A stretch of 64,000 nt of DNA from the human T2T-CHM13v2.0 reference genome, Homo sapiens. The translations under genes and the position numbers were made by a program. Location of the stretch: NCBI RefSeq assembly GCF_009914755.1, contig NC_060927.1; one strand, 5' to 3'. The notes beneath the pieces are model-generated. The model was not told the DNA's origin. It made no database searches and worked only from the letters and a program-made list of their open reading frames with translations. Positions 38,367 through 41,593 of the stretch are shown here, piece by piece; positions within the stretch are counted from its first letter, which is position 1, and the number at the start of each line of letters is the position of its first letter.

Positions 38367-38606
38367 AAATTTTCTGGTTTTTTTTCTTGATTCAGTTGTG
38401 ATAAGCTTCTGCCTTTCAAGGAATTTTTCCATGTCAACCAAATTGTCTATGGAGTTGGCATAAAGTTGTTCACAGTATTCTCTTATCGTTTTAATTTCTA
38501 AAGGGTTATGAGCAGTGTTCTCCTGTTTCACTGATTTTGGTCATTTGTGTCTCCTCTCTTATTTTCTTAGACAGTTTAACAAAAGGTTTGTAAATTTTGT
38601 CCATCT
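38367..38606 (+). repeat. Near-identical direct copy of 40121-40361
   Basis: Alignment by eye: 6 substitutions plus a T-run difference over ~230 bp. Confidence 0.95.
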
Positions 38607-38613
38607 ATTCCTA

Positions 38614-38910
38614 GGCCGGGCGTGGTGGCTCATGCCTGTAATCCCAGCACTTTGGGAGGCCGAGGTGGGTGGATCACCTGAGGTCGGGAGTTCGGGACTA
38701 GCCTGACCAACATGGAGAAACCCCATCTCTACTGAAAATACAAAATTAGCCGGGCGTGGTGGTGCATGCCTGTAATCCCAGCTACTCAGGAGGCTGAGGC
38801 AGAAGAATCGCTTGAATTCAGGAGACGGAGGTTGCAGTGAGCCGAGATCACACCACTGCACTCCAGCCTGGGTGACACAGCAAGACTCTGTCTCAAAAAA
38901 AAAAAAAAAA
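38614..38910 (+). mobile_element. AluSp-like
   Basis: GTCGGGAG, TGACCAACATGGAGAAACCCC diagnostics; TSD ATTCCTA at 38607-38613 and 38911-38917. Confidence 0.93.
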
Positions 38911-39674
38911 ATTCCTATTTTATTTTTTTGATGATGTTATTGTTACTGGGATTGGAATTGTTTTCTTAATTTCATTTTTCAATTGCTCTTTGGTAGTAGA
39001 AATGCAATCATTTCTGCATATATTGACTTTCATATTCTGCAACTTTGCTGAACTTGTTCATTCATTTTAGTAGTTTAAAAAATGCATTACATTGGATTTC
39101 CTATGGACACATGTTTATGATTAAAGACAGCTTTCCTTTTTCCTTTGCAATAAGGATGACTTATAATATTTATTTTTCTTGTCTTATTTCATTATACTAG
39201 AATACAATGGTAAATATAAATAATGAATGAAGTCATCCTTGTTTTGTTCCTAATCTTAGAGAGACAGCATTCAGTCTTTCATTTAGTATGATAAGCTATA
39301 TGTTTTTCATAGTTTTCCTTCTTATCCTAGTTTGTGGAAAGTTTTCATCAGAAATGGATGTTAGATTTTGTTATATGCTTTATCTGTCCCTATTATGGTG
39401 ATTATGTGTTTCTTGTTCTTCATTCTACTAACAGGGCATACTACGTTAATTAATTTTTGGATATAGACCCAACCTTTCATTACTGGGATAAATCCCACTT
39501 GGCCGTGGTATATAATCATTTTTGTATGTTTCTAGATTTTGTTTTCTAATATTTTTGTTGAAGGTTTTTATATGTGTATTTATGAAGAATATTAGTCTGC
39601 AGTTTTCTTGTGATGTCTTCATTGTCTTTGGTATCAGGATAATAGCGGTCTCATAATGAATAAAACTGTGCCTT

Positions 39675-39976
39675 GGCCAGGTGCGGTGGCTCACGCCTGT
39701 AATCCCAGCACTTTGGGAGGCCAAGGTGGGTGGATTACCTGAGGTCAGGAGTTTGAGACAAGCCTGGCCAACATGGTGAAACCCCGTCTCTACTAAAAGT
39801 ACAAAAATTAGCCTGATGTGGTGGCGGGTGTCTATAATCCCAGCTACTTGGGAGGCTGAGGCAGGTGAATTGCTTGAACCCAGGAGGCAGAGGTTGCAGT
39901 GAGCGAAGATCACGCCACTGCACTCCAGCCTGGGCAACAAGAACAAGACTGTCTCAAAAAAACAAAAACAAAAACA
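39675..39976 (+). mobile_element. AluSq/Sx-like with (CAAAAA)n tail
   Basis: TSD AAAACTGTGCCT at 39662-39673 and 39977-39988. Confidence 0.93.
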
Positions 39977-41593
39977 AAAACTGTGCCTGTCCTTTTCTAT
40001 TTTCTGAAATATTTGACATTTGATATATTTCAACAGCAAAGTAACCTGGGCTAGAATTTTTCTTGGTGGGAAGATTTTTAAATTATTAACTCAATTTCTT
40101 TACTTGTTATATGTCTATTGAAATTTTCTGTTTTTTTTTTCTTGATTCAGTTGTGATAAGTTTCTACCTTTCAAGGAATTTTTCCATGTCAACCAAATTG
40201 TCTATGGAGTTGGCATAAAGTTGTTCACAGTATTCTCTTATCATTTTAATTTCTAAAGGGTTATGAGCAGTGTTCTCCTGTTTTACTGATTTTGGTCATT
40301 TGTGTCTCCTCTCTTATTTTCTTGGACAGTTTAACAAAAGGTTTGTAAGTTTTGTCCATCTTTTCAAAGAACCAACTTTGGTTTCATTGATTTACTGTTC
40401 TGTTTTTACTCTTTTCTGATCTGTGATTTCTACTCCAGTATTTTCCTTCTGCTTTCTTTGCATTTAGTTTGCTGTTCTCTTTCTAGTTTCTTAGGGTGGA
40501 AACTTAGGTTATTGATTTGGGAATCTTTTTTCTTTCTTAACATATGAATTTACAGCTCCAAGTTTCCCTTTAACCACTACTTTGGCTACATTTCATACAT
40601 TTTGGTATGCTGCATTTTCGTTTTCCTTCAGTTCTGATCTTTAAAGTATTTTCCTTATTATTCATCCTTTGACTCATTGGCTATTAAGACACACACTATT
40701 TAATTTATAAGTATGTGAGGATTTCCTCAATTTTTTATCTCATGTTTATTTTTAATTTAATTCCTTTATGGTCAGATAACATACTTTGTATAATTTCAAT
40801 CATTTTAAATTTATTGAAACTCGTTTCATGGCCTAGCATTAAGACTTCTCCCAGAGAAAATTCCATGTGCACTGAAAGAGAATCTGTATTCTGAGATTTG
40901 TGACCACAAATTCTCTGTTCAGTATTTTTGTTATTACTTTACTTTTAAGCCTGGCTTCCTAGGGGTCACTGCTGTGTTAGCATTGCTTGGTGGTCACCAA
41001 CAATTGGTCAGAGGCTGTGCTCAAACACTTTGTACTAGTAAAGCTTCTACCCTTGCTGATGGATCTATGCATCGATTATGGGACAATTCAAAGCTCAGGC
41101 CGTGAACGAGCCTGGCCCAGCTTTTACTCTCTGCTAGGCCCTCTTGTGTCTCCTCTGTAACTGCACAAGGCCTGTCATTTAACCAGAAATGTGTTGATAG
41201 CAAAGGCTCTTTTCAGTCTCTCCAGAATGTGAGCACGTAGCTTCCTGACCCCCAGGGATACGCAGGTACTTATTAAAGCTCAGTATGGCTGACTCCTTCC
41301 CTGGAGTGGCTAACATGCCAGTCTACTGCTTGCCCCAACCAGGATCTCAAACTCAGGCCAGCTGTGATGTTGGCCTTTTCTATTCATATACCACCAACAT
41401 TGCTAAGGTTTCAACACAGGCAGAGTCATGGGGTATTTCCACTGTGCTCCAAATCAAGTCAGCTCGCTCTGGCAATGGAGCTGCTGATTTTCATTGACTG
41501 TACTGACAGAGCTGGGGAAAAAAAGGAGGGACTGCAGCAGCCCCAGACAAAGTTGCCACAGGCTTTCATACTTCTTCTCAAGGTTCAGTAGTT

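What the first reader, a model, noticed from the sequence alone, without database searches (positions are those of the whole stretch)
38367..40361. ~230-bp templated insertion copied from 1.75 kb downstream inside an ancient L1
Seen: 38367-38606 and 40121-40361 differ by only 6 substitutions plus a T-run change, although they lie in a highly decayed L1M. The downstream copy is colinear with its L1 context. The upstream copy interrupts the L1 motif TTGTTAAATTT^ATTCCTA, which is seen intact in another L1M at ~19380-19397. Both copies begin at shared AAATTT microhomology. The insert ends right at the 5' TSD of an AluSp, which is only 7 bp. Inference: a microhomology-mediated template switch (FoSTeS/MMBIR or polymerase theta-type repair) younger than the Alu, possibly promoted by the nearby inverted Alu pair (37500- and 38614+).
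Basis: partly seen in the sequence, partly recalled or inferred. Interest (0 to 1): 0.7.

Follow-up and report, generated by a model that had tools for sequence, protein, structure and literature searches.

The report
Local DNA patch with hairpin-marked end
A 234-base piece of old repeat DNA in a human intron is a copy of a stretch 1.5 kb away; it was likely written in while an ancestral ape germ cell repaired a DNA break, which is a known and probably harmless kind of mutation, though here the copy stops just after a sequence predicted to fold back onto the break's own flank.

Summary
The duplicate is real. 38373-38606 (234 nt) is a same-strand copy of 40127-40361, with 6 transitions plus a T-run change. 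Nothing else found in the genome exceeds 75% identity, and 47 decay marks are shared with that donor. The donor is in L1 register; the copy splits the L1 motif AAATTT/ATTCCTA with no base lost. One junction has 6-bp microhomology, the other 0-1 bp. This is the reported signature of microhomology-primed synthesis finished by end joining. The copy is likely about a quarter to a third as old as the adjacent Alu (no orthologue data could be had). Two corrections: the 7-bp TSD is probably an eroded 13-bp TSD that the copy splits, and nothing supports a role for the inverted Alu pair. New and post hoc: the break's left flank (38344-38369) is a 23-pair imperfect inverted repeat of the copy's end. This is the flank's best partner among 1,536 windows, and the copy stops 6 nt after it, which suggests snap-back release. 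Corrected for 16 looks, chance is about 0.05-8% depending on the null. Known class, intronic, no function shown.

The parts
38373..38606 (+). Inserted copy, 234 nt, same orientation as its donor
40127..40361 (+). Donor segment, in register with its old-L1 context, about 1,520 nt from the break in pre-insertion coordinates
38367..38372 (+). AAATTT microhomology at the target (junction 1); likely also the first 6 nt of the Alu's original 13-bp 5' TSD
40121..40126 (+). AAATTT microhomology at the donor; made by locus-specific decay (family majority has G at 40122 in 20 of 31)
38344..38369 (+). Left arm of an imperfect inverted repeat (flank of the break)
   Evidence: (I8, I9)
38575..38600 (+). 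Right arm of the inverted repeat inside the copy; the copy ends 6 nt later
40330..40355 (+). Same arm in the donor (23 pairs with the flank, one of them G-T; -15.8 kcal/mol)
38607..38613 (+). ATTCCTA, remaining 5' TSD of the Alu; junction 2 (0-1 bp microhomology) lies at its left edge
38614..38911 (+). Full-length old Alu with a pure A17 tail (AluSp-like left arm, name recalled); 15 of 25 CpG decayed
38911..38917 (+). 3' TSD remainder ATTCCTA
37499..37796 (-).
   Evidence: (I1)
39675..39972 (+). Third Alu, between target and donor
36954..40817 (-). Decayed host L1 (ORF2 region, about 60% identical to the young L1 in the window)

Best explanation
38373-38606 is a same-orientation copy of 40127-40361 set into an old L1 with no target base lost, and it was likely written in during repair of a two-ended germline DNA break at TTT/ATTCCTA, long after the neighbouring Alu inserted. 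Shown by sequence: source, direction, 6-bp microhomology at one junction, 0-1 bp at the other, zero loss, and the inverted repeat. Inferred steps: (1) a break in the AT-rich Alu TSD, whose TTT/A steps resemble L1 endonuclease sites (cause unknown); (2) resection of the right end for about 1.8 kb exposes the donor's bottom strand; (3) the left 3' end anneals by AAATTT 1.5 kb inside it, which would otherwise give a deletion, and is extended 234 nt; (4) the new strand is released, possibly (about even odds) because its last 32 nt snap back onto the left flank and leave a 6-nt tail; (5) the tail is joined to the intact tip of the right end and the gaps are filled. Estimated age is 0.24-0.35 of the Alu's age, roughly the great-ape stem. 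The product is most likely neutral.
For: Unique local source and 47 shared derived positions in 218 columns. L1 register contiguous across the target. Microhomology of 6 or more in 0.43% of random junctions. One blunt plus one microhomology end is the commonest pattern (59%) in human-cell insertion assays, with donors from resected DNA 0-2 kb from breaks (10.1101/2022.09.30.509517 passages); a like hybrid model is in PMC11724301 (passages). Differences fall on both copies: 40161 and 40284 derived in the copy, 40166 and 40349 in the donor, 40243 and 40324 ambiguous; this argues against an assembly artefact. Age: 7/234 = 3.0% (95% CI 1.2-6.2%); local Alus carry 149/3319 = 4.5% non-CpG changes, so 20.8 differences are expected against 6 seen, P = 1.4e-4. 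Inverted repeat: lowest energy of 31,170 grid pairs, 17 of which reach the copy-state value of -13.6; best partner of this flank among 1,536 windows; 13 of 1,430 possible end points tie; absent from relatives, 0 of 837 cross pairs.
Against: No orthologue or population data were obtained, so age and the empty allele are inferred. This Alu's own non-CpG count is low (6-8 of 232), and on that alone the age gap is not significant (p 0.06-0.18). The inverted repeat was noticed post hoc among 16 flank combinations. It weakens with 25/30-nt windows (11 and 90 of 4,752) and by alignment score (132 of 4,752). The flank also has a -13.6 partner near 36000, and 12 of 120 random flanks have a partner that good somewhere. 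The whole 272-nt strand folds no better than shuffles (z -0.58). The direction of synthesis cannot be read: leftward synthesis from the right end that ends at AAATTT gives the same product. Enzymes cannot be identified from sequence.
Confidence: 0.6

Rival explanations
1. Replication slippage or fork template switching without a two-ended break: the growing strand jumped 1.5 kb forward at AAATTT, copied 234 nt and jumped back.
For: Same product and the same microhomology. Local templates with microhomology are ascribed to template switching in PMC4617611 (passages).
Against: The return lands exactly on the next target base with 0-1 bp of homology, although an AAATTT lies 9 nt from the copy's end (38592). 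A snap-back in a fork would be expected to re-copy the flank arm, which is not seen (inference).
Confidence: 0.13
2. RNA-templated patch: a nick at TTT/A primed reverse transcription (L1 ORF2p) on nascent minus-strand CFAP20DC pre-mRNA next to an A-rich tract, and the short cDNA was joined without a TSD.
For: TTT/A occurs at 1.9% of local positions, and the donor start is the T-richest 20-mer locally (17 of 20). Orientation and the donor's upstream place in the transcript fit the hub annotation. RNA-templated patches are reviewed in PMC5110952 (parts 1-2 of 4).
Against: No TSD and no untemplated poly(A). No sign of minus-strand germline transcription in 17 local Alus (A>G 18, T>C 12, p 0.28). 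Described TSIP donors are distant. Snap-back needs a single-stranded flank.
Confidence: 0.12
3. The copy was made during the Alu insertion itself (template jump at the 5' junction), which would explain why it ends at the edge of ATTCCTA.
For: Positional coincidence with the apparent TSD; low non-CpG divergence of this Alu.
Against: The pair is too young on CpG-informed and local clocks (p 0.0001-0.014). Among 16 other pure-A-tailed Alus with a readable TSD, all 3 with an apparent TSD of 9 or less show an A-led TSD start eroded into the tail, so the true TSD here is likely 13 bp and was split later. TSDs are themselves endonuclease targets (PMC3215922 passages).
Confidence: 0.06
4. Two separate events (a 1.75-kb tandem duplication, then a 1.5-kb deletion at AAATTT), or an old insertion later homogenised by gene conversion.
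For: Junction 2 looks like a tandem-duplication join and junction 1 like a microhomology deletion; tandem duplications are 89.8% of duplications in PMC12350158 (section 16).
Against: The deletion would have to start exactly at the duplication boundary. Identity is even right up to both ends (18-20 of 20 per window) and changes lie on both copies.
Confidence: 0.04

Closest known systems
Microhomology-primed, end-joining-completed templated insertions at a DSB (Min et al., 10.1101/2022.09.30.509517; hybrid model in PMC11724301)
   Same: One microhomology end and one blunt end; donor within the 0-2 kb resection range; donor left intact.
   Different: Those are induced somatic events with 2-3 nt microhomology, and their class-1 donors lie near cut sites across the genome. 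This one is a germline event old enough to carry 7 differences, with 6 nt, and an inverted repeat marks its end.
Local interspersed/complex duplications in human SV catalogues (PMC4617611; SVAN classes in PMC12350158)
   Same: Sub-kb segment inserted within 2-5 kb of its source, with short microhomology.
   Different: The classes highlighted there are mostly inverted or accompany deletions; this one is direct, loses no base, and is much older than a typical polymorphism.
SD-MMEJ / polymerase theta templated insertions (PMC5728401)
   Same: Annealing across the break, synthesis, dissociation and rejoining ('trans' events); secondary structure steers the outcome.
   Different: SD-MMEJ repeats act within about 30 bp as primers. 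Here the template is 1.5 kb away, the tract is 234 nt, and the inverted repeat would release the strand rather than prime it.
MMB-TI (PMC8421209)
   Same: Germline templated insertions flanked by microhomology.
   Different: Defined as inverted copies of templates within 100 bp; neither holds here.
TSIP class 1 and class 2 (PMC5110952)
   Same: Class 2: no TSD, no poly(A), end-joining junctions, similar size (73-414 bp in the experimental set).
   Different: TSIP donors are distant; class 1 marks (TSD, added poly(A)) are absent.

Membership tests
Local templated insertion / interspersed duplication | Insert matches a template within about 2 kb and is not tandem | tested here: met
Local templated insertion / interspersed duplication | One copy is derived (interrupts the ancestral sequence) and the donor is intact | tested here: met
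   L1 family register and relatives
Local templated insertion / interspersed duplication | Empty allele seen in another haplotype or species | not testable with these tools
   no relatives held; published tables unreadable or cut
Hybrid microhomology-synthesis plus NHEJ insertion | One microhomology junction and one blunt junction | tested here: met
   6 bp and 0-1 bp
Hybrid microhomology-synthesis plus NHEJ insertion | Dependence on resection, Pol delta and NHEJ factors | not testable with these tools
   historical event
SD-MMEJ / TMEJ insertion | Primer repeats within about 30 bp of the break, short tract | tested here: not met
   template 1.5 kb away, 234 nt (criterion)
SD-MMEJ / TMEJ insertion | Microhomology at the final join | tested here: inconclusive
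   1 bp, or 4 of 5 imperfect, if synthesis ran rightwards; 6 bp if leftwards
MMB-TI | Inverted copy of a template within 100 bp | tested here: not met
   direct copy, 1.5 kb (criterion)
TSIP class 1 (L1 ORF2p) | TSD of 5 bp or more and added poly(A) | tested here: not met
   criterion
TSIP class 1 (L1 ORF2p) | TTTT/A target | tested here: inconclusive
   ATTT/A; TTT/A at 1.9% of local positions
TSIP class 2 | End-joining junctions without TSD or poly(A) | tested here: met
TSIP class 2 | Template from a distant region | tested here: not met
Inverted-Alu hairpin instability | Spacer up to about 100 bp, deletion outcome | tested here: not met
   817 nt now, about 583 before insertion; no deletion

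The most novel reading that the evidence does not exclude
A chance inverted repeat made by L1 decay set where the copy ended: the new strand folded back onto the break's own flank like a terminator hairpin, came off its template with a 6-nt tail, and turned an impending 1.5-kb microhomology deletion into a clean insertion. If general, the end points of local templated insertions are predictable from flank-to-template complementarity.
Probability: 0.3. Interest if true: 0.6.

Novelty: new member of a known kind. Interest (0 to 1): 0.32.

Why it matters
As a locus it matters little: it is intronic, 4 kb from the nearest annotated enhancer and 10 kb from the nearest exon, with no function shown. 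It is a clean fossil of break repair and a likely ape lineage marker. Its value is the testable idea that nascent-strand snap-back decides where templated copying stops, a step that the models read here leave open.

Tried and rejected
Independent young L1 insertion: rejected, no other matching copy above 78% and 47 shared decay marks. Assembly artefact: rejected, 7 differences on both copies; reads were not available. Inverted repeat intrinsic to the L1 family: rejected, majority pair -4.6 and 10 of 10 relatives holding both parts -4.0 to -7.9. Inverted-repeat arm made by a mutation cluster: not supported, 5 derived sites in 22 nt equals the 23% background. Germline transcription asymmetry: none. 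Whole-strand folding: unremarkable. Alu tail to donor-start complementarity (I14): low complexity, not counted. Dating from papers: supplements of PMC10461412 and PMC10028934 not readable. The ape-specific SV table of PMC6749001 is cut and has no FHIT, PTPRG, FAM3D or C3orf67 rows, so its silence is uninformative. PMC12767239 has no expression statement. Background rate: only this event in about 322 kb scanned (84 partly overlapping records plus 3 of 10 kb), too little to give a rate. The microhomology value 10 was dropped as an artefact.

Full report
Observation. The two segments align at 96.3% over 245 columns. Anchored at the right end they differ by 6 transitions, plus one substitution and a 1-base length change in the T-run near the left end; identity drops to background just outside. 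The copy proper is 38373-38606 (234 nt) and the donor 40127-40361; AAATTT precedes both. Searches of the window's own genome return the donor at 96% and other matches to the copied segment at 69-78% (40 candidates scored in each, so these are not full counts).

Which copy is the insert. Mapped to the long young L1 in the window, the donor and its flanks are continuous, while the copy sits between a left flank ending near position 13607 and a right flank resuming at 13605. Of 25 distinct other old L1 loci, none runs from the left flank into donor-type sequence; 4 continue exactly with ATTCCTA and most others with near variants, as does window 19391. Against 31 relatives both copies differ from the family majority at 50-51 of 218 columns, 47 of them shared. 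So the upstream copy came from this donor after long decay, and no target base was lost. The family names L1M and AluSp are recalled, not tested against a library.

Junctions. Junction 1 has 6 bp of microhomology; random local junctions reach that in 0.43%. The donor's AAATTT is itself a decay product. Seven other AAATTT sites lie within about 3 kb, some nearer. Junction 2 has one shared T at most. In a human-cell assay 59% of insertions had one blunt and one microhomology end, read by the authors as microhomology-primed synthesis finished by NHEJ, and a third of donors lay 0-2 kb from a break (10.1101/2022.09.30.509517, passages). PMC11724301 gives a like hybrid model in yeast (passages). A donor on the far side of the break, copied in direct orientation, is what follows if the right end was resected and its exposed bottom strand served as template (inference).

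Age. The pair differs at 7/234 = 3.0% (95% CI 1.2-6.2%). The Alu has lost 15 of 25 CpGs and differs at 8 of 232 non-CpG sites from the majority of its 29 nearest relatives. Joint likelihood tests put the copy at 0.24-0.35 of the Alu's age, p 0.0006-0.014 over six settings; non-CpG sites alone give p 0.06-0.18. Seventeen Alus in this intron carry 4.5% non-CpG change, predicting 20.8 differences against 6 (P 1.4e-4). With recalled primate divergences this is about the great-ape stem; a human-macaque age gives P 0.016. No orthologue could be read: no relatives are held, two supplements were unreadable, and the table in PMC6749001 is cut before or lacks this region. Unseen supplements may already list this insertion.

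The Alu TSD. The visible TSD is 7 bp. Of 77 full-length Alus examined, 17 had a pure A tail followed by a readable TSD. Leaving out this one, all 3 of 16 with an apparent TSD of 9 or less show an A-led TSD start in the 5' flank that has been eroded into the tail. The target here reads TT/AAATTTATTCCTA, a typical endonuclease site and 13 bp. The copy therefore likely splits the 5' TSD, which fits a later event and reduces the coincidence that favours a coupled origin. TSDs supply endonuclease targets (PMC3215922, passages), so a second cut there is plausible but not shown. The inverted Alu pair had a spacer of about 583 nt and is 83-85% complementary; the same paper gives about 100 bp as the range of hairpin instability in yeast and 650 bp for the earlier human depletion study. 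Its role is neither needed nor shown.

The flank 38344-38369 pairs with 40330-40355 (38575-38600 in the copy): 23 pairs, -15.8 kcal/mol with the donor and -13.6 with the copy. The stem appears in the predicted fold, and the copy ends 6 nt after it. For: 13 of 1,430 possible end points tie for best; it is the lowest of 31,170 grid pairs, with 17 at or below -13.6; it is the flank's best partner of 1,536 windows; it is specific to this locus (0 of 837 cross pairs of relatives); 4 of 153 AAATTT site pairs in the window have such a partner within 320 nt. Against: it was found post hoc among 16 combinations; with 25/30-nt windows 11 (donor) and 90 (copy) of 4,752 random pairs do as well; the flank has another -13.6 partner near 36000, and 12 of 120 random flanks have one that good; the whole strand folds no better than shuffles. 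After correction the chance level runs from about 0.05% to 8% for the 35/40-nt windows and is not significant for the shortest windows. I give about even odds that it was causal. The simplest role is snap-back of the new strand onto the resected flank, releasing it from the template. A tether between flank and an opened donor is an alternative.

Rivals. Fork switching gives the same product but does not explain the exact zero-loss return (0.13). An RNA template fits the TTT/A site, the T-rich donor start and the host-gene strand, but there is no TSD or added poly(A) and no strand asymmetry in local Alus (0.12). Coupling to the Alu insertion conflicts with the age (0.06). Duplication then deletion, or conversion, needs exact coincidences (0.04).

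Comparison and novelty. It is a member of the local templated insertion class (PMC4617611 passages; PMC12350158 passages and section 16). It works like the hybrid primed-synthesis and end-joining route. It fails the defining tests of MMB-TI (PMC8421209 passages), short-range SD-MMEJ (PMC5728401 passages) and TSIP class 1 (PMC5110952 parts 1-2 of 4). A search for the gene names gave 81 papers; none of the 30 listed concerns this insertion by title or abstract start. Searches on snap-back and inverted repeats showed no listing on hairpin release ending a long direct copy; I saw listings and passages only, and most subscription papers are not held. Only this event was found in about 322 kb scanned, so no rate can be given.

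Verdict. Real, of a known kind, probably neutral. Interest 0.32. The most novel reading, hairpin-set end points, has probability 0.3 and would merit 0.6; existing long-read catalogues can test it.

Noticed in passing
window 27006-30334: Young L1 with an inverted 5' part: 27011-28035 matches the long L1 on the minus strand and 28036-30334 on the plus strand, the twin-priming pattern (name recalled).
   Followed up: no
window 38614-38894: The Alu looks mosaic: its left arm shares rare letters with a few relatives (L060, L061, L064), while its right end has the shorter form seen in L063-L065; L064 has both.
   Followed up: partly
window 37886-37920 and about 35960-36015: Two further inverted partners of the break flank (-15.6 with the 40-mer ending at 38370, and -13.6), so the flank is unusually prone to pair.
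   Followed up: partly
window 38895-38918 and 40117-40140: The Alu tail plus TSD is 83% complementary to the donor's T-rich start (I14); nested with the main inverted repeat but low in complexity.
   Followed up: no
window 17848-18478: Two minus-strand Alus, one directly in the other's A tail.
   Followed up: no
window 44875-44908: 34-bp perfect palindrome in a TA/CA microsatellite grown from an Alu tail.
   Followed up: no
L090 3223-4439 (G000:C3:58913223-58914439): Tandem array of a 47-bp unit, about 26 copies, 90% matches, in the same gene's intron.
   Followed up: no
L025, L007, L022, L087 and others: The start of the 3' TSD is often eroded into the Alu A tail, so short apparent TSDs understate the true length.
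   Followed up: yes
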